This document shows, piece by piece, positions 2,209 through 7,055 of a stretch of 10,861 nt of DNA. How positions within the stretch are numbered: the stretch's first letter is position 1; every line of letters starts with the position of its first letter. The stretch comes from a virus. Taxonomy: Duplodnaviria > Heunggongvirae > Uroviricota > Caudoviricetes. Both the position numbers and the translations under genes were made by a program. A model generated the notes under the pieces. That model worked only from the letters and a program-made list of their open reading frames with translations. It was not told the origin of the DNA and did not search any database. The stretch spans positions 1 to 10,861 of the IMG/VR virus record IMGVR_UViG_2713896896_000006, one strand, 5' to 3'.

Positions 2209-2280
2209 GGGTCCTCCCGGTGGGGTGGCCTGCCACGGGGCGGGAGCGTCGCGGAAAAAGGCTAGTTTTTGAAATTTCAT
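2209..2280 (+). other. Lambda-like cos site, copy 1 (cosQ-like GGGTCCT at 2209-2215; predicted cosN 12-mer GGGCGGGAGCGT at 2238-2249)
   Basis: Aligns with the recalled lambda right-end/left-end junction ACGGGTCCTTTCCGGTGATCCGACAGGTTACG|GGGCGGCGACCT|CGCGGG; sits between the lysis cassette and the Nu1-like gene, as in lambdoid genomes. Lambda sequence is from memory. Confidence 0.65.
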
Positions 2281-2370: not shown

Positions 2371-2423
2371 CGTTTGCCTAAAGTTGTTCGCAAGATGCAT
2401 GTTTAAAACATTCCGGAGCGGGT

Positions 2424-2918
2424 ATGGATCGAGAGTTAAAAAATCTGACGCTGAATATCAGTCAACTGGCGGCACTGTCAGGTGTACATCGCCAGACTGC
2501 TGCGGCAAGGCTGCAAAATCTACCCGTTGCAGGGGGGCATGAAAGCAACCTCAAGCTTTATCGGGTGGTTGATATTGTGTCGGCATTTCTGGCATTACCA
2601 CCGCCGGTTGCAGAAGGCGAAATGGACGCGCATGAGCGCAAAGCCTGGTATCAGTCTGAACGTGAGCGTCTTAAGTTCGAACAGGAAACGGCACAACTCA
2701 TTCCGGCCAGTGATGTCAGACGGGAGTTTGCCATCTGGGCAAAAGCGGTCGTGCAGGTGCTGGAGACATTACCGGATATTCTGGAACGTGACTGTGGTCT
2801 GCAGCCTGCCGCTGTGAGCCGTGTTCAGTCCATTATTGATGATCTGCGCGATCAGATAGCCCTGCGGGTGACCGAAGCAGGTGCGGATGATGAGGAGGAA
2901 TTACAGCAGGAGGAGTAA
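2424..2918 (+). CDS. Terminase small subunit, lambda Nu1-like
   Basis: N-terminal HTH-like segment (LNISQLAALSGVHRQTAAARL) and acidic C-terminus comparable to Nu1; GGAG Shine-Dalgarno; stop overlaps the large terminase start (TAATG). Confidence 0.75.
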   Translation: MDRELKNLTLNISQLAALSGVHRQTAAARLQNLPVAGGHESNLKLYRVVDIVSAFLALPPPVAEGEMDAHERKAWYQSERERLKFEQETAQLIPASDVRREFAIWAKAVVQVLETLPDILERDCGLQPAAVSRVQSIIDDLRDQIALRVTEAGADDEEELQQEE

Positions 2919-3913
2919 TGCTGAATCAGGAAACCGCAAAGGCAGCACGAACCGATTCAGGTTATATCCTTCGCGCACCGAGACGAATGCGGGTTGCTGA
3001 TGCCGTTGCTCAGTATATGCGGGTGCCCATGGGGGCAGGGAACTCAGTCCCGTGGGATCCGCTGGTGGCACCGTATGTTATTGAGCCGATGAACTGCCTG
3101 GCCTCGCGTGAATACGACGCAGTGATATTTGTTGGCCCGGCACGAACCGGCAAGACTATCGGCCTGATTGACGGCTGGGTGATTTACAACGTGATTTGCG
3201 ATCCTGCGGATATGCTGATCATTCAGATGACGGAGGAAAAAGCCCGCGAACACTCCAAAAAACGACTCGCCAGAACGTTTCGCGTCAGCCCGGAAGTGGT
3301 CAGTCGCCTGAGTCCGAACAAAAATGACAACAACGTTTATGACAGAACATTCCTTGCTGGCAACTACCTGAAAATCGGCTGGCCGTCAGTCAATATCATG
3401 TCCTCATCAGATTATAAATGCGTGGCGCTGACGGATTATGACCGTTTTCCGGAAGATATTGATGGCGAGGGGGATGCTTTCTCTCTTGCCTCAAAACGTA
3501 CCACCACATTTATGTCCAGCGGTATGACGCTGGTGGAGAGTTCCCCCGGCAGGGATGTGAAGGATGTGAAATGGCGACGGACTTCACCGCATGAGGCTCC
3601 ACCAACCACGGGGATACTGTCGCTCTATAACCGTGGCGATCGCCGTCGCTGGTACTGGCCCTGTCCACACTGTGGTGAGTTTTTTCAGCCCTGCGGCGAT
3701 GTGGTTGCTGGTTTCCGTGATATTGCCGATCCCGTGCTGGCAAGTGAGGCGGCTTATATTCAGTGTCCTTCCTGTTCAGGACGGATTATGCCTGAACAAA
3801 AACGTGAGCTGAACGGACGTGGGGTCTGGTTGCGGGATGGTGAATCCATCAATGCGGATGGCAGTCGTTATGGTGATCCCCGACGCTCACGTATTGCGTC
3901 ATTCTGGATGTAG
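2918..3913 (+). pseudogene. Terminase large subunit (lambda gpA family), truncated to the N-terminal 331 aa
   Basis: Walker A-like VGPARTGKT; CPHCGE motif (WYWPCPHCGEFF versus lambda FHVACPHCGEEQ); tracks lambda gpA up to about residue 330 (RIASFWM versus VTFHIWTAY) then hits a stop; the remaining ~300 codons are absent and the integrase gene begins 160 bp later. Confidence 0.8.
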
Positions 3914-4074
3914 GGTACATTTCTTACCTGTTTTTATGTTCTGGTGTCGTTTTGTAGTCTTTTCAATGAGTTGTGATTTTTTGTGTTTCCTCTCTTTACT
4001 TGATAATGAGTTAGTTTATCGCTTGTTATCGACTTGAAAGGACTACATGACGGACTAAAAAATGAGGGCGATAG

Positions 4075-5313
4075 ATGCCGGTAAAGCCATTAACCGTGAC
4101 TGAAGTTAAGGGAATGAAACCACGTGAAAAGGACTATGCCGTTTATGATGGATTCGGTTTATTGCTGAATGTGAGTAAAGCTGGTGGGAAAGTGTGGCGT
4201 TTCCGTTATAGCCATCCGATAACGAAGAAACGGCAGACATACACGATAGGGCGTTTTCCTGAATTCTCACTCGCGGAAGCACGGGAAATACGTGATGAAC
4301 TTCGGCGAATGATTGCACGTGGAGTTGATCCAGTGACAGAGAAGAAAAATCGTAAAATTGAGATGTCACTAAAAAATCTACAAACATTTGAAGCTGTTGC
4401 TAATGCATGGATCGCTTTTAAAAAGGGATCGGAATTGCGGAAACCTACGCTGTATAATATCGAATATGAAGTATACAAATATCTTGTTCCTTTCTTTGGT
4501 AAGTACAGCATAGAGAAAATTACAGCGCCAGTAGCTATTAATGCTCTGGATGCCGTATCCGATAAGAATGCGTTGCAAAAAAAATTAATATCAAGATTAA
4601 ATGAAATTATGAATTACGCTGTAAATTGTGGAGCATTGAAAACGAATCCATTACTTAAGATAAAAACTGCATTCACAGGAAAGAAAAATAAATCATTAGC
4701 TGCACTACCTATTGAAAGATTGCCTGAATTTCTGAGCTGGTGGGATAGTGTGCCTCATAAGTATCAAATAGCTCACAATGCACTTTTATTCCAGATATTG
4801 ACAATGGTCAGGCCAGGTGAGGCGATTAAAGCAGAGTGGTCCGAGATTGATTTTGATTCTGGCTTGTGGATTATCCCCGCGCATAAAATGAAATGCCATC
4901 GTGAACATGTTGTGCCTCTCTCATCACAGGCTATTAGAATCCTAAGAACAATGCAGAAAATAAAAAGAGGGCGTTATATATTTTTTTCCTCCAGAACAAA
5001 AGATGCTCCTATGGGAAAGAATACTATCAATACCCCAATTGCTGCCAGCAAGTTCAAAGGGATTGTAACGTTACACGGTTTTCGTTCGATGTGGAGTACG
5101 CTTTTAAATGAGGAGGGTTTTAACCCTGATGTTATTGAGGCTGCATTAGCACATAAAAGTGGTGATAAAATAAGAGATATTTATAATAGAACTACTTATT
5201 TAGAACAACGCAAAATTATGATGCAATGGGTAGGAGATTTTTTTGATGAGGCGAGAAAAGGGGTAATTAATAGATCCGGTGGTAAGAAAGGTTTGAGAAT
5301 AGTAAATGGTTGA
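4075..5313 (+). CDS. int: Tyrosine recombinase, P4-type integrase
   Basis: N-terminal arm-binding-like domain (KDYAVYDGFGLLLNVSKAGGKVWRFRY...TIGRFPEFSLAEAR) and C-terminal catalytic region (HGFRSMWST...H..R..YNRTTY); GAGGG Shine-Dalgarno. Confidence 0.9.
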   Translation: MPVKPLTVTEVKGMKPREKDYAVYDGFGLLLNVSKAGGKVWRFRYSHPITKKRQTYTIGRFPEFSLAEAREIRDELRRMIARGVDPVTEKKNRKIEMSLKNLQTFEAVANAWIAFKKGSELRKPTLYNIEYEVYKYLVPFFGKYSIEKITAPVAINALDAVSDKNALQKKLISRLNEIMNYAVNCGALKTNPLLKIKTAFTGKKNKSLAALPIERLPEFLSWWDSVPHKYQIAHNALLFQILTMVRPGEAIKAEWSEIDFDSGLWIIPAHKMKCHREHVVPLSSQAIRILRTMQKIKRGRYIFFSSRTKDAPMGKNTINTPIAASKFKGIVTLHGFRSMWSTLLNEEGFNPDVIEAALAHKSGDKIRDIYNRTTYLEQRKIMMQWVGDFFDEARKGVINRSGGKKGLRIVNG

Positions 5314-5325
5314 GGAGTTCAGCAA

Positions 5326-5529
5326 ATGAATACCAATGAAGATATTTTATTTACTAAAGACGTAATGAAAATTTTGCGCTATGGGGCAATGAGCGCATTC
5401 ATCAATTTCTGGAAAGATGAAAATAATGGTTTTCCTCAACCGTTCAGAATTGGGCGGCGGCATACCTGGCACCGTAGAGATGTAGAGGCATGGTTAGATA
5501 AACAACGAGAACAGGCCAATCCCCACTAA
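5326..5529 (+). CDS. alpA: AlpA-family DNA-binding regulator/excisionase-like protein
   Basis: 67 aa, directly downstream of int; AlpA-like HTH with a ...HRRDVEAWLDKQ tail; GAGGAG Shine-Dalgarno. Confidence 0.7.
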   Translation: MNTNEDILFTKDVMKILRYGAMSAFINFWKDENNGFPQPFRIGRRHTWHRRDVEAWLDKQREQANPH

Positions 5530-5543
5530 TAATATCTTTCATA

Positions 5544-5568
5544 CCCCGCACGCAATGCGGGGTTTTTT
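5544..5568 (+). terminator. Intrinsic terminator after alpA
   Basis: CCCCGCA / CGCAA / TGCGGGG followed by TTTTTT. Confidence 0.8.
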
Positions 5569-5587: not shown

Positions 5588-6169
5588 ATGAATAAAAATA
5601 TTGCCGTGACGGGCAAGGGGTACGCTCGTTCAGTAAAAAAATTCTGCGATATTCGTGATCTTGTCGTTCTGCGCTTTGATGGCGTGGATGTTCGTGTGGT
5701 GTATCTGAACGGCGATCCGTGGTTTGTTGCAAAGGATGTTTGTGAAGCTCTGGAAATAAGCAACTCACGCGATGCTCTAAAAGCTCTGGATGTGGATGAG
5801 AAGAATACCGTCGCTTTAAGCTACGGTATTCGCGGAAATCCAAATCATAGCGTCGTTTCTGAATCTGGTTTTTACAAGCTGATCGCCAGAAGTCGCAAAG
5901 CTGTTACTCCTGGCACGTTCGCCCATCGTTTCAGTAACTGGGTATTCAGGAATGTGATACCAGGTATCAGAAAAACGGGGGCTTATGGTATCCCGTGGGG
6001 TGCATTACAGGATTTTTCCCGCCGTAAAGAGCAATATCAAATAAGTGCCAGCGAGAAGGGGAGGGAGCTACAGGCATGTAAGCGCAAAAAGCGTGAGCTG
6101 GAGGAAGAAGAAAAAAGGCTGATACGTGAATATCAGCCTGAGTTTTACTTTGGTGAGCGTATTCAGTAA
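5588..6169 (+). CDS. Bro-N domain protein (antirepressor-like)
   Basis: N-terminal Bro-N signature (FDGVDVRVVYLNGDPWFVAKDVCEALEI...VVSESGFYKLIARSRKA) with a charged, coiled-coil-like C-terminus; GAGGT Shine-Dalgarno. Confidence 0.7.
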   Translation: MNKNIAVTGKGYARSVKKFCDIRDLVVLRFDGVDVRVVYLNGDPWFVAKDVCEALEISNSRDALKALDVDEKNTVALSYGIRGNPNHSVVSESGFYKLIARSRKAVTPGTFAHRFSNWVFRNVIPGIRKTGAYGIPWGALQDFSRRKEQYQISASEKGRELQACKRKKRELEEEEKRLIREYQPEFYFGERIQ

Positions 6170-6385: not shown

Positions 6386-6829
6386 CTATTGCATCAACAA
6401 TGAATGTCTTATCCACATTACGAGGGATGGAATAATTTTTATGTATCCGCCATATGCCCATATAATGGTGCCAAAAACAGTTAGTCCAACCCCGAGTACT
6501 TCAGCTTTTATTTCCTCTCTGACCTCAACTCGAGCTTTAGCTAAGTTTTCTTCTCGTATCTTTTGTGATTCTTCCGCAGACAATGGCGGGCCAGTTACGC
6601 CACTGCGTGAATTAATTTCAGCTTCGCGATTAGATAATTTTTTTAAAGTTGTGAACTTGATTGTATACAACAATCCAAAAACTGAAATAATTGCACCTGA
6701 GCTGGCGAATAGATTCATATCATTAAGATATTGGCCGAACAAAAAGCTTGCTCCACAAAAAACACATAATATGGCAATGGATGTTTTTGCACCGAGTATT
6801 TTTAGTAATATTGTTCTAAATCTCTTCAT
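6386..6829 (-). CDS. Hypothetical multi-pass membrane protein (147 aa)
   Basis: Three to four hydrophobic helices around a charged central loop (SAEESQKIREENLAKARVEVREEIKAE); AT-rich codon usage; second gene of a minus-strand pair after the ribbon-helix-helix gene. No family recognised. Confidence 0.6.
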   Translation of the reverse strand: MKRFRTILLKILGAKTSIAILCVFCGASFLFGQYLNDMNLFASSGAIISVFGLLYTIKFTTLKKLSNREAEINSRSGVTGPPLSAEESQKIREENLAKARVEVREEIKAEVLGVGLTVFGTIIWAYGGYIKIIPSLVMWIRHSLLMQ

Positions 6830-6860
6830 TGTTAATATATCCTATCATAGAAGTAGTAAT

Positions 6861-7055
6861 TCACCCCTTAGGTTCGATACCGCGCCGCTTTAGTTCGGAG
6901 CGCCCTAACTCTTTAAGCCAGTTAGCAAGGCTTACACCATCATTATTAGCCTCGCTATCAAACTGTTCTTTCAGTTCTGGAGCTATACGCATATGGAAAG
7001 GGGGAGCCTTTCCTGTCCCTTTGGGTTTTTTATCGCGTTTAATTATTGTTGACAT
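6861..7055 (-). CDS. Ribbon-helix-helix (Arc/CopG-like) DNA-binding protein, candidate island repressor
   Basis: Basic N-tail then a beta-strand/helix pattern (FHMRIAPELKEQFDSEANNDGVSLANWLKEL) typical of RHH proteins; AGGTG Shine-Dalgarno; start codon lies inside the palindromic operator region. Confidence 0.6.
   Translation of the reverse strand: MSTIIKRDKKPKGTGKAPPFHMRIAPELKEQFDSEANNDGVSLANWLKELGRSELKRRGIEPKG

What the first reader, a model, noticed from the sequence alone, without database searches (positions are those of the whole stretch)
2918..4075. Large terminase gene ends at codon 331 exactly where an integrase-bearing island begins
The gpA-like ORF keeps its N-terminal Walker A and CPHCGE region and follows lambda gpA to about residue 330, then stops at 3911-3913. 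The rest of gpA is missing and a P4-type integrase starts 160 bp later. Either a satellite integrated into the helper prophage's large terminase gene (an attachment site inside a phage packaging gene would cripple the helper), or the mobile unit itself carries a small terminase plus an ATPase-only terminase fragment. Neither arrangement is typical.
Basis: partly seen in the sequence, partly recalled or inferred. Interest (0 to 1): 0.75.

Follow-up and report, generated by a model that had tools for sequence, protein, structure and literature searches.

The report
Phage satellite lodged inside helper's terminase gene
A small parasitic element (a phage satellite) has inserted itself at one precise spot inside the DNA-packaging gene of a dormant lambda-like virus of E. 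coli. The virus can probably only rebuild that gene when the satellite cuts itself out, an arrangement first described in 2023 but seen here at a new site and with a different insertion enzyme.

Summary
The ORF at 2918-3913 is the first 331 codons of a 700-codon lambda-gpA-type large terminase gene (terL). It keeps the whole ATPase domain and lacks the whole nuclease domain. It ends at a TAG supplied by the first base of an inserted island, and the island's P4-type integrase starts 161 bp later.

In longer E. coli and Salmonella contigs the missing terL 3' half lies about 10.6 kb downstream, just past the island. The island is flanked by a repeat of the core YTGGATG(T/G)AGGG, and removing it restores the intact gene.

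The island has the layout of a Gram-negative PICI: integrase, a small AlpA/Xis-like HTH protein, Bro-N, a replication module with iterons, and SSB. In relatives a protease-capsid fusion and a small-terminase homologue follow. It also carries a 72-nt copy of the helper's cosQ-cosN-like site.

This is the helper-embedded PICI configuration of Tommasini, Mageeney and Williams (2023). It is not one of their 14 sites. Its integrase is only 25% identical to their founder and lies closer to tRNA/tmRNA-targeting P4-type integrases.

Nine of nine relatives at 45-96% identity also sit inside prophage late operons. That suggests a second integrase lineage aimed at prophage late genes.

Verdict: real, mechanistically ordinary for its class, and a modest extension of it.

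The parts
2209..2280 (+). Helper prophage cos-like site (cosQ GGGTCCT to cosN-like GGGCGGGAGCGT), about 145 bp upstream of terS
   Evidence: It is one copy of the 72-nt direct repeat. It aligns to the lambda right-end/left-end junction, including GGGTCCT and GGGCGGCGACCT. An mEp460-type phage record begins inside it.
2424..2918 (+). Helper small terminase (DUF1441 family)
   Evidence: Pfam DUF1441 E=2.7e-41. PHROG 141 'terminase small subunit' E=7e-74. Its stop overlaps the terL start.
2918..3913 (+). 5' fragment of the helper large terminase gene: 331 codons, ATPase domain only, ended by TAG
   Evidence: It is 99.4% identical over residues 1-333 to the 700-aa intact TerL of E2348/69. The nuclease domain of the intact protein starts at residue 326.
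3904..3915 (+). attL core C-TGGATG-T-AGGG. The inferred 7-bp strand-exchange region is 3904-3910 (YTGGATG). T3911 is the first base that must come from the island, and it creates the TAG.
   Evidence: attL, attB and attR were compared. attL always has T at this position and attR always has G. Position -1 (C or T) follows the helper allele at both ends.
3911..4074 (+). P' arm of the satellite att site, with the doubled arm-type motif GGACTA-N6-GGACTA at 4040-4057
   Evidence: This is the only match in the window, against 0.01 expected by chance. It lies at the same +135 offset in E. coli L001 and Salmonella L086. It is conserved in Rahnella while the flanks diverge. No terminator is predicted in this stretch.
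4075..5313 (+). Satellite tyrosine integrase, P4-type domain architecture
   Evidence: Pfam Arm-DNA-bind_3, Phage_int_M/SAM_3 and Phage_integrase. It is 33% identical to P4 Int and 25% identical to 11capE Int.
5326..5529 (+). Small HTH protein in the AlpA/excisionase position
   Evidence: PHROG 66 'excisionase and transcriptional regulator' E=9e-7. Pfam HTH_17 is below threshold. RefSeq names it an HTH transcriptional regulator. A strong terminator-like hairpin follows at 5543-5563.
5588..6169 (+). Bro-N anti-repressor-like protein (the 'dynamic zone')
   Evidence: Pfam Bro-N E=1.8e-18. PHROG 2593 anti-repressor E=4e-83.
6386..7055 (-). The two reverse-oriented genes of the island: a 147-aa predicted membrane protein (6386-6829) and a 64-aa RHH/Arc-like protein (6861-7055)
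   Evidence: The only family match is weak: PHROG 228 Arc-like repressor E=9e-6. There is no PADLOC hit.
8006..9759 (+). Replication module: DUF4222 protein (8006-8347) and AAA_25 RepA-like helicase (8344-9759)
   Evidence: Pfam results. PHROG 2850 and 906.
9758..9951 (+). Probable replication origin: two exact 26-nt direct repeats (9758-9783 and 9926-9951)
   Evidence: The position, just downstream of the replication gene, matches what is described for Gram-negative PICIs (PMC10111431, introduction).
9961..10631 (+). Conserved 83-aa protein (PHROG 1231) and SSB
   Evidence: This stretch is 85% identical at the nucleotide level to the same two genes of the founder HE-PICI 11capE.
10672..10743 (+). 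Satellite copy of the helper's cosQ-cosN-like site
   Evidence: It is 90% identical over 72 nt to 2209-2280 and aligns to lambda cos. Homology to the helper stops right after it, so the cosB-equivalent side differs.

Best explanation
**What it is.** The window shows the left junction (attL) and about 7 kb of a PICI-type phage satellite of about 10.6 kb. The satellite is integrated site-specifically, and in the same orientation as the late operon, inside the gpA-type large terminase gene of an mEp460-like lambdoid prophage. The insertion point is the codons for F-W-M|E-G at the start of the nuclease domain.

**Shown by sequence.**
- terL is split and can be rebuilt exactly.
- The first island base creates a stop codon.
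- The island encodes an integrase, a small HTH protein, a replication module and a copy of the helper's cos.
- Its relatives carry a capsid-protease gene and a small-terminase homologue. They carry no large terminase, portal, tail or lysis genes.

**Inferred, from the anatomy and from the experiments on the related element 11capE.**
1. While the satellite sits in place, the helper can make only an ATPase-only TerL stub and cannot package DNA.
2. After induction the whole composite excises and replicates.
3. Helper late transcription runs through terS and the terL stub into int and the HTH gene.
4. The satellite then excises across the 7-bp overlap YTGGATG, and terL is restored.
5. The restored terminase packages both genomes. 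The satellite competes through its own cos and, in relatives, its own TerS and capsid protein.
For: **The gene is split, not naturally short.**
- Intact terL is 700 aa, with ATPase plus nuclease domains.
- The 5' and 3' halves flank the island in EJN001, O157:H7 3-5-1 and Salmonella.

**Site specificity.**
- The core repeat shows a fixed T (attL) versus G (attR) asymmetry.
- 33 of 34 IMG/VR junctions lie in terL, across at least 10 alleles that all end ...SRIASFWM.

**Functional att site.**
- The doubled arm motif sits at conserved offsets of -83 and +135.
- This is the same layout as the annotated attP arm repeats of P4.

**PICI content and dependence on the helper.**
- PICI-like gene content and order.
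- 85-90% nucleotide identity with 11capE in the replication zone.
- A 72-nt cos copy.
- In a relative, the satellite TerS is 68% and the satellite capsid-protease is 57% identical to the helper's.

**Consistent with read-through and clean excision.**
- No terminator-like site is predicted between terL' and int.
- Sequenced mEp460-type phages have uninterrupted terL and never carry the island.
- For 11capE, excision of the composite, then replication, then satellite excision were observed experimentally (PMC10111431, abstract and results).
Against: - No excised form was found. No attP junction appeared in IMG/VR or in JGI metagenome contigs, so activity of this particular lineage is not demonstrated.
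- Some occupied prophages are decayed. In UK_Dog_Liverpool the terL 3' half and the head genes are missing.
- The AlpA assignment of the 67-aa protein is weak.
- The window ends inside the island, so its own right end, capsid and terS genes, attR and terL 3' half are inferred from relatives whose middle modules differ.
- Read-through from the late operon is inferred only from orientation and from the lack of a predicted terminator.
Confidence: 0.85

Rival explanations
1. Dead-end insertion. An integrative island happened to use a sequence in terL as its attB, killed the prophage, and now persists as a chromosomal island with no working helper relationship to the prophage it sits in. This would amount to prophage domestication or decay.
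For: - At least one occupied prophage has lost the terL 3' half and its head genes.
- No attP junction was found in IMG/VR or in metagenomes.
- One off-target chromosomal insertion exists, L105.
Against: - The site is used on at least 10 terL alleles and in three genera.
- All nine related integrases examined sit co-oriented in late operons of different prophage types.
- The island carries the helper's cos. Relatives carry a TerS and capsid of the same families as their own helper: DUF1441 plus protease-capsid in this lineage, Nu1 plus gpE plus gpD in lambda-type helpers.
- int is full length in the window and across 657 cluster members.
Confidence: 0.1
2. One reading: the mobile unit itself includes the small terminase and an ATPase-only terminase fragment.
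For: Only the adjacency of terS, the terL stub and int within the window.
Against: - terS and the terL 5' part are contiguous with full-length terL in about 2000 E. coli genomes and in free phages.
- Homology to those genomes stops at 3916, not upstream of terS.
- attR and the terL 3' half bracket the island on the other side.
- The upstream lysis genes belong to the same prophage.
Confidence: 0.01
3. An added function rather than a replacement. The 331-aa ATPase-only TerL stub is a stable product that poisons terminase assembly. It would act against the helper before excision, or against related superinfecting phages, by binding TerS without being able to cut DNA or dock on the portal.
For: - The break falls exactly between the two Pfam domains, leaving a complete ATPase domain.
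- The island supplies an immediate in-frame stop at every junction seen.
Against: There is no evidence of expression, stability or activity. The clean stop may simply be part of the att core. Related integrases insert within domains, for example at about codon 195 of a gpA ATPase domain, so a domain boundary is not a general rule.
Confidence: 0.04

Closest known systems
Helper-embedded PICIs (HE-PICIs), founder 11capE in prophage 50icd of E. coli NRG857c (Tommasini, Mageeney and Williams 2023, PMC10111431)
   Same: [quoted passage not shown]
- The interrupted gene is restorable by excision.
- Same gene order: int, small HTH, Bro-N zone, replication zone with ori and SSB, then a late zone with captured capsid and terS genes.
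- Replication-zone DNA is 85-90% identical to 11capE.
- attP has a doubled 12-bp-period motif on each arm, the downstream one about 133 bp from the core centre in both elements.
   Different: - The integrase is only 25% identical (86 bits), far below that study's 400-bit search cut-off.
- The site is in a GpA-family terL, whereas their terminase sites are in the Terminase_1 family. The core sequence is absent from their attL/attR files.
- The arm motif is GGACTA, not TGTATTGC.
- The upstream arm motif ends about 68 bp from the core centre here, against about 81 bp in 11capE.
Classical Gram-negative PICIs such as EcCICFT073 (cos-packaged; as described in PMC10111431 and the references it cites)
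   Same: Size, P4-type int, a small regulator, a primase/helicase with a downstream ori, an optional capsid gene, dependence on a lambdoid helper, and cos-based packaging.
   Different: Classical PICIs sit in chromosomal genes apart from the helper (EcCICFT073 at phoQ) and interact only in trans. This element is inside the helper.
Satellite phage P4
   Same: P4-type integrase (33% identity). attP with paired 12-bp arm repeats on both sides of the core. Dependence on a helper for packaging.
   Different: - P4 integrates at a tRNA-Leu gene and uses a P2-type helper.
- No sid, psu, delta or epsilon homologue was detected among the window ORFs.
- The replication protein is an AAA_25 helicase rather than the P4 alpha primase.
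tRNA/tmRNA-targeting CP4-57/IntA-like integrases
   Same: These are the nearest integrases outside the late-gene-targeting group (34-41% identity), with the same domain architecture.
   Different: 56 of 60 such loci have a co-oriented tRNA or tmRNA gene directly upstream of int. None has a gpA-type terL within 10 kb.

Membership tests
HE-PICI (configuration as defined in PMC10111431) | [quoted passage not shown] | tested here: met
   terL is split into a 331-codon 5' part and a roughly 370-codon 3' part by the island.
HE-PICI (configuration as defined in PMC10111431) | Key satellite genes (int, alpA, replication) co-oriented with the interrupted late gene | tested here: met
   All lie on the + strand with terS/terL. 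The same holds in all 9 related loci examined.
HE-PICI (configuration as defined in PMC10111431) | Four ordered zones: integration (int + AlpA), dynamic (Bro-N network), replication, late | tested here: met
   int 4075-5313, HTH 5326-5529, Bro-N 5588-6169, replication 8006-10631, cos 10672-10743. The late-zone genes are seen only in relatives. The AlpA assignment is weak.
HE-PICI integrase clade of PMC10111431 | Integrase closely related to 11capE Int (at least 400 bits by TBLASTN) | tested here: not met
   86 bits and 25% identity. The cut-off is quoted from the paper's Supplementary Table 1. P4 Int is closer, at 207 bits.
HE-PICI integrase clade of PMC10111431 | Doubled TGTATTGC motif about 81 bp upstream and about 132 bp downstream of the attP centre | tested here: not met
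   No match in the window with up to 3 mismatches. An analogous doubled GGACTA motif occupies comparable positions.
HE-PICI integrase clade of PMC10111431 | One of the 14 published late-gene sites | tested here: not met
   Their gene-A sites are Terminase_1:132 and :245/246. No GpA site name and no matching core string appear in the supplementary files held as text; their GI table (file 3) was truncated when stored.
HE-PICI (behaviour) | Satellite excision after induction and replication of the composite | not testable with these tools
   Only indirect searches were possible. No attP junction was found in IMG/VR or in JGI metagenome contigs.
Gram-negative PICI | 10-20 kb element with a terminal int, a regulator, a replication gene plus ori, and no lysis or tail genes | tested here: met
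   The island is about 10.6 kb in L001 and about 10.4 kb in L004. The gene content matches. The window's own right end is not visible.
Capsid-forming PICI (cf-PICI) | Own large terminase, portal and head-tail connectors as well as a capsid gene | tested here: not met
   Relatives carry only a protease-capsid fusion, a DUF1441 TerS and a small ORF in the late zone.
P4-like satellite | sid, psu, delta, epsilon/ash and alpha-primase genes | tested here: not met
   No such family was hit by any window ORF in Pfam or PHROGs. Only the integrase type and the attP layout resemble P4.
Lambda gpA-type large terminase | N-terminal GpA_ATPase plus C-terminal GpA_nuclease domains in one protein of about 640-700 aa | tested here: not met
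   The window ORF has the ATPase domain only. The intact allele has both. It is therefore a gene fragment, not a short family member.

The most novel reading that the evidence does not exclude
The window's integrase may belong to a second lineage of P4-type integrases that arose independently and has specialised on prophage late genes.

- Relatives at 45-96% identity occupy at least eight different sites. These include two in gpA-type terL, one in a protease-capsid gene, one in a major capsid gene, one in a lambda head-tail/tail gene, and positions next to terS, portal and scaffold-like genes. The helpers have lambda-, HK97- and Terminase_3/Mu_F-type head modules.
- The next-nearest integrases (34-41% identity) use tRNA/tmRNA genes.
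- The published HE-PICI clade is more distant still (25% identity).

If this holds, helper embedding would have evolved at least twice. It would also be more common than the 2023 survey suggests, for example in O157:H7, O121, O111 and O145 strains.
Probability: 0.6. Interest if true: 0.55.

Novelty: new member of a known kind. Interest (0 to 1): 0.4.

Why it matters
- It explains a recurrent 'pseudogene' annotation. RefSeq marks the terL halves as incomplete in the E. coli genomes examined, which include an O157:H7 strain. The gene is more likely a reversible, satellite-controlled switch on a prophage's packaging enzyme.
- Prophage-completeness tools and satellite finders will tend to score such prophages as defective and to miss the satellite.
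- Biologically, the terminase is the one function the satellite itself lacks and needs. The insertion therefore ties the helper's packaging to the satellite's own excision.
- If the second integrase lineage is confirmed, targeting of prophage late genes would be a convergent strategy rather than a quirk of one clade. That is worth a systematic survey, but it does not overturn current understanding.

Tried and rejected
- **Published HE-PICI arm motif.** I searched for TGTATTGC, doubled or single. It is absent or at chance level, so the element is not filed in that integrase clade.
- **Published att files.** I searched the paper's attL/attR files and GI table for this core and for a GpA site. 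None was found.
- **GTDB representative genomes.** Searching with the integrase returned only relatives at 41% identity or less, none near a gpA-type terL. They served only as an outgroup.
- **Excised forms.** I looked for attP in IMG/VR (0 of 34 hits were attP) and in JGI metagenome contigs (0 hits). This is negative but weak, because most of the IMG/VR contigs that matched appear, from their ids, to be prophage calls from isolate genomes, and I expect E. coli to be rare in the JGI metagenome collection.
- **Other screens.** Rfam found no RNA family in the window. PADLOC found no defence-system hit among the island ORFs. ARAGORN found no tRNA in the window, so a tRNA attB is excluded.
- **Literature.** Searches for other descriptions of satellites in terminase genes found only the 2023 paper and papers that cite it.
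- **Readings considered and dropped.** A cf-PICI or P4-like identity fails for lack of the defining genes. The idea that terS plus the terL stub belong to the island is excluded by the homology breakpoint at 3916.
Full report
**1. The observation**

The window reads as the late region of a lambdoid prophage followed by an island.
- Prophage part: lysozyme (598-1131), Rz/Rz1 (1376-1891), a DUF1441 small terminase (2424-2918) and a gpA-type large-terminase ORF (2918-3913).
- Island part: integrase (4075-5313), a 67-aa HTH protein (5326-5529), Bro-N (5588-6169), an AAA_25 helicase (8344-9759) and SSB (10209-10631).

The terminase ORF is 331 aa. It covers the entire GpA_ATPase profile (residues 41-304), contains no nuclease domain, and ends at TAG 3911-3913. 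The integrase starts 161 nt later. G+C falls from about 52-55% to about 37-44% across the junction.

**2. The gene is truncated, not naturally short**

Megablast of 2400-4400 against 5426 complete E. coli genomes finds this terS/terL in 2130 of them. In the top hits that lack the island, the match ends at query base 1517, which is window 3916. In E2348/69 the same gene continues to 700 aa, with GpA_ATPase at 41-304 and GpA_nuclease at 326-644. About 1998 genomes have an uninterrupted 300-bp stretch across the site. So do sequenced mEp460/Ayreon/phi458-type phages, none of which carries the island.

**3. The other end of the island**

In E. coli EJN001 the terL 5' part (99.4% identical to E2348/69 over residues 1-333) and the 3' part (98.4% over residues 326-701) are separated by about 10.6 kb. 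The portal and head genes follow directly. The same structure occurs on a diverged terL allele (about 70% amino-acid identity) in O157:H7 strain 3-5-1. It also occurs in Salmonella with a 75%-identical integrase.

| Site | Sequence |
|---|---|
| attL | ...cattC TGGATG T AGGG tacattt... |
| attB | ...cattC TGGATG G AGGG tccggc... |
| attR | ...cttcC TGGATG G AGGG tccggc... |

- The G/T position is always T at attL and G at attR.
- Position -2 differs between attL and attR.
- Position -1 (C or T) follows the helper allele at both ends in three composites.

I therefore infer that strand exchange happens within the 7 bp YTGGATG (window 3904-3910). The first island-derived base, T3911, turns GAG (Glu332) into TAG. 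Excision would regenerate ...FWMEGPAA... exactly.

**4. Site specificity**
- An exact-match scan of IMG/VR for the core plus the P' arm gave 34 contigs. In 33 the upstream sequence is terL, in at least 10 nucleotide alleles, all ending ...SRIASFWM.
- One contig (L105) is an off-target insertion beside a 299-aa non-phage ORF whose N-terminus looks like that of a LysR-type regulator (by eye, not family-tested).
- Rahnella carries the same attL.
- The integrase (at least 80% coverage) is present in 88 of 5426 complete E. coli genomes, including O157:H7, O121:H19 and O111:H8 strains.

**5. The attachment site has arm-type sites**

GGACTA-N6-GGACTA occurs once in the window (4040-4057), against 0.01 expected by chance. 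In the 42-kb EJN001 locus it occurs only twice, at +135 from the attL core and -83 from the attR core. The same offsets hold in Salmonella, although the surrounding arms have diverged. The P4 genome record annotates the same layout: tandem 12-bp arm repeats on both sides of the core. So does the 11capE element, with a different motif. This supports a functional P4-type attP.

**6. What the island is**

The gene order is int, a small HTH, Bro-N, two reverse-oriented small genes, DUF4222, a helicase, exact 26-nt repeats just after the helicase gene (9758-9783 and 9926-9951, a probable ori), a PHROG-1231 protein and SSB. This is the four-zone organisation described for Gram-negative PICIs (PMC10111431).

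The replication zone is 85-90% identical at the nucleotide level to that of 11capE. Relatives continue with a ClpP-protease/major-capsid fusion (57% identical to the helper's), a DUF1441 TerS homologue (68% identical) and a small conserved ORF. They have no TerL, portal, tail or lysis genes.

Inside the window, a 72-nt sequence upstream of the helper terS (2209-2280) is repeated at 90% identity after the island's SSB gene (10672-10743). It aligns with the lambda cohesive-end junction from GGGTCCT through GGGCGGCGACCT. In lambda, GGGTCCT is cosQ; that assignment is from my own knowledge of the lambda literature. The satellite therefore carries the helper's packaging signal but lacks the enzyme that cuts it, which is the very gene it interrupts.

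**7. Mechanism**

*Shown:* a reversible split of terL, a stop codon supplied by the island, co-orientation with the late operon, no terminator-like site between terL' and int, and cos, TerS and capsid mimicry.

*Inferred:*
1. The helper cannot package while the island is in place.
2. After induction, late transcription reads into int and the HTH gene.
3. The island excises and terL is restored.
4. The satellite and the helper then compete for terminase.

The order of events (composite excision, replication, then satellite excision) was measured for 11capE/50icd (PMC10111431). It has not been measured for this element. I found no attP junctions in IMG/VR or in metagenome contigs, and one occupied prophage is clearly decayed. 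Activity of this lineage therefore remains unproven.

**8. Comparison with what is known**

The configuration is the helper-embedded PICI of Tommasini, Mageeney and Williams (2023). [quoted passage not shown] Three features set the present element apart.
- Those terminase sites are in Pfam Terminase_1 proteins. Neither a GpA site nor this core sequence appears in the supplementary files held as text; the paper's GI table was truncated when stored.
- Their survey used the 11capE integrase with a 400-bit cut-off. The window's integrase scores 86 bits (25% identity) against it, and 207 bits against P4 Int.
- Their signature TGTATTGC motif is absent.

I therefore file the element under the HE-PICI configuration, not under that integrase clade.

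**9. A wider pattern**

Relatives of the window's integrase form a graded series. Every one of the nine I examined, at 45-96% identity, sits co-oriented inside a prophage late operon.

| Relative | Host | Position |
|---|---|---|
| window lineage | E. coli, Salmonella, Rahnella | this terL site |
| L134 | Lelliottia | about codon 195 of a lambda-type gpA |
| L091 | Salmonella | S78 protease-capsid gene |
| L088 | E. coli | head-tail/tail gene of a lambda-like prophage |
| L132 | E. coli | next to a Terminase_2 small terminase |
| L093 | E. coli | next to a scaffold-like gene |
| L133 | Raoultella-type integrase (viral contig, vOTU) | major capsid gene |
| L135 | Pantoea | next to a portal gene |

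The captured late genes match the helper type: Nu1 plus gpE plus gpD in lambda-type helpers, and DUF1441 plus a protease-capsid fusion here.

In contrast, 56 of 60 loci with 34-41%-identical integrases have a tRNA or tmRNA gene directly upstream, and none of the 80 loci fetched at that identity level has a gpA-type terL nearby. By similarity, the late-gene-targeting group containing the window is nested among tRNA/tmRNA-targeting integrases and is separate from the 11capE clade. A proper phylogeny is still needed.

**10. Verdict**

The phenomenon is already a described kind, so surprise is limited. The new elements are the site, the integrase lineage and its arm motif, plus the indication that helper embedding evolved more than once. 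Literature searches found no other description, but the searchable library is incomplete.

Noticed in passing
window 2209-2280 and 10672-10743: A 72-nt direct repeat, 90% identical: one copy upstream of the helper terS, one in the island after SSB. It aligns to the lambda cosQ-cosN junction, so the island carries the helper's packaging site. Homology ends right after it, so any cosB-like side differs.
   Followed up: yes
window 9758-9783 and 9926-9951: Two exact 26-nt direct repeats (AAAAAGTGGGTAGTAAAAGTGGGGAG), 168 bp apart and immediately after the AAA_25 helicase gene. They are probably iterons of the satellite's replication origin.
   Followed up: partly
L001 28213-28284 and about 30747-31404: In the EJN001 relative the island has two cos-like copies about 2.5 kb apart. 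One follows SSB (92% identical to the helper's). The other is fused to the island's own DUF1441 terS (74%). How two co-oriented cos sites in a 10.6-kb element are handled during packaging is unexplained.
   Followed up: no
L088-L090, L091-L092, L093-L094, L132, L133, L134, L135: Integrases 45-62% identical to the window's sit co-oriented at other positions in prophage late operons. The positions are gpA at about codon 195, an S78 protease-capsid gene, a major capsid gene, a lambda head-tail/tail gene, and next to terS, scaffold-like or portal genes. The exact att cores and attR ends were not mapped.
   Followed up: partly
L105 1158-1179 (IMG/VR UViG 2737471855_000016): The same island with a non-terL left flank: a 299-aa non-phage ORF whose N-terminus looks LysR-type by eye (not family-tested), then ...cactttt-TGGATG-TAGGG. 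It looks like an off-target integration at a secondary site that shares TGGATG.
   Followed up: partly
L005 (E. coli UK_Dog_Liverpool) 23157-26255: The right end of the island is followed directly by a tail-fibre gene. The terL 3' half, the portal and the head genes are missing. This is a decayed composite that can no longer restore terL.
   Followed up: no
window 6386-6829 (-) and 6861-7055 (-): The only reverse-oriented island genes: a 147-aa predicted membrane protein with no family or defence-system hit, and a 64-aa RHH/Arc-like protein. They sit in the variable zone where PICIs often carry accessory or immunity functions.
   Followed up: partly
L001 32118-32120 (attR): The Met331 ATG of terL is retained in frame at attR (ATG GAG GGT...). 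The nuclease-domain half therefore begins with a start codon, but no Shine-Dalgarno-like sequence precedes it.
   Followed up: no
window 5543-5563: A strong terminator-like hairpin (ACCCCGCACGCAATGCGGGGT plus a T-run) lies directly after the small HTH gene. It separates int and the HTH gene from the rest of the island. It may gate read-through from the helper late operon.
   Followed up: no
L001 2895-6722 and 19049-19342: The EJN001 helper prophage carries the Dsr1 anti-phage sirtuin gene next to its own integrase, and the iss serum-survival gene just upstream of terS. The composite therefore also carries defence and virulence cargo.
   Followed up: no
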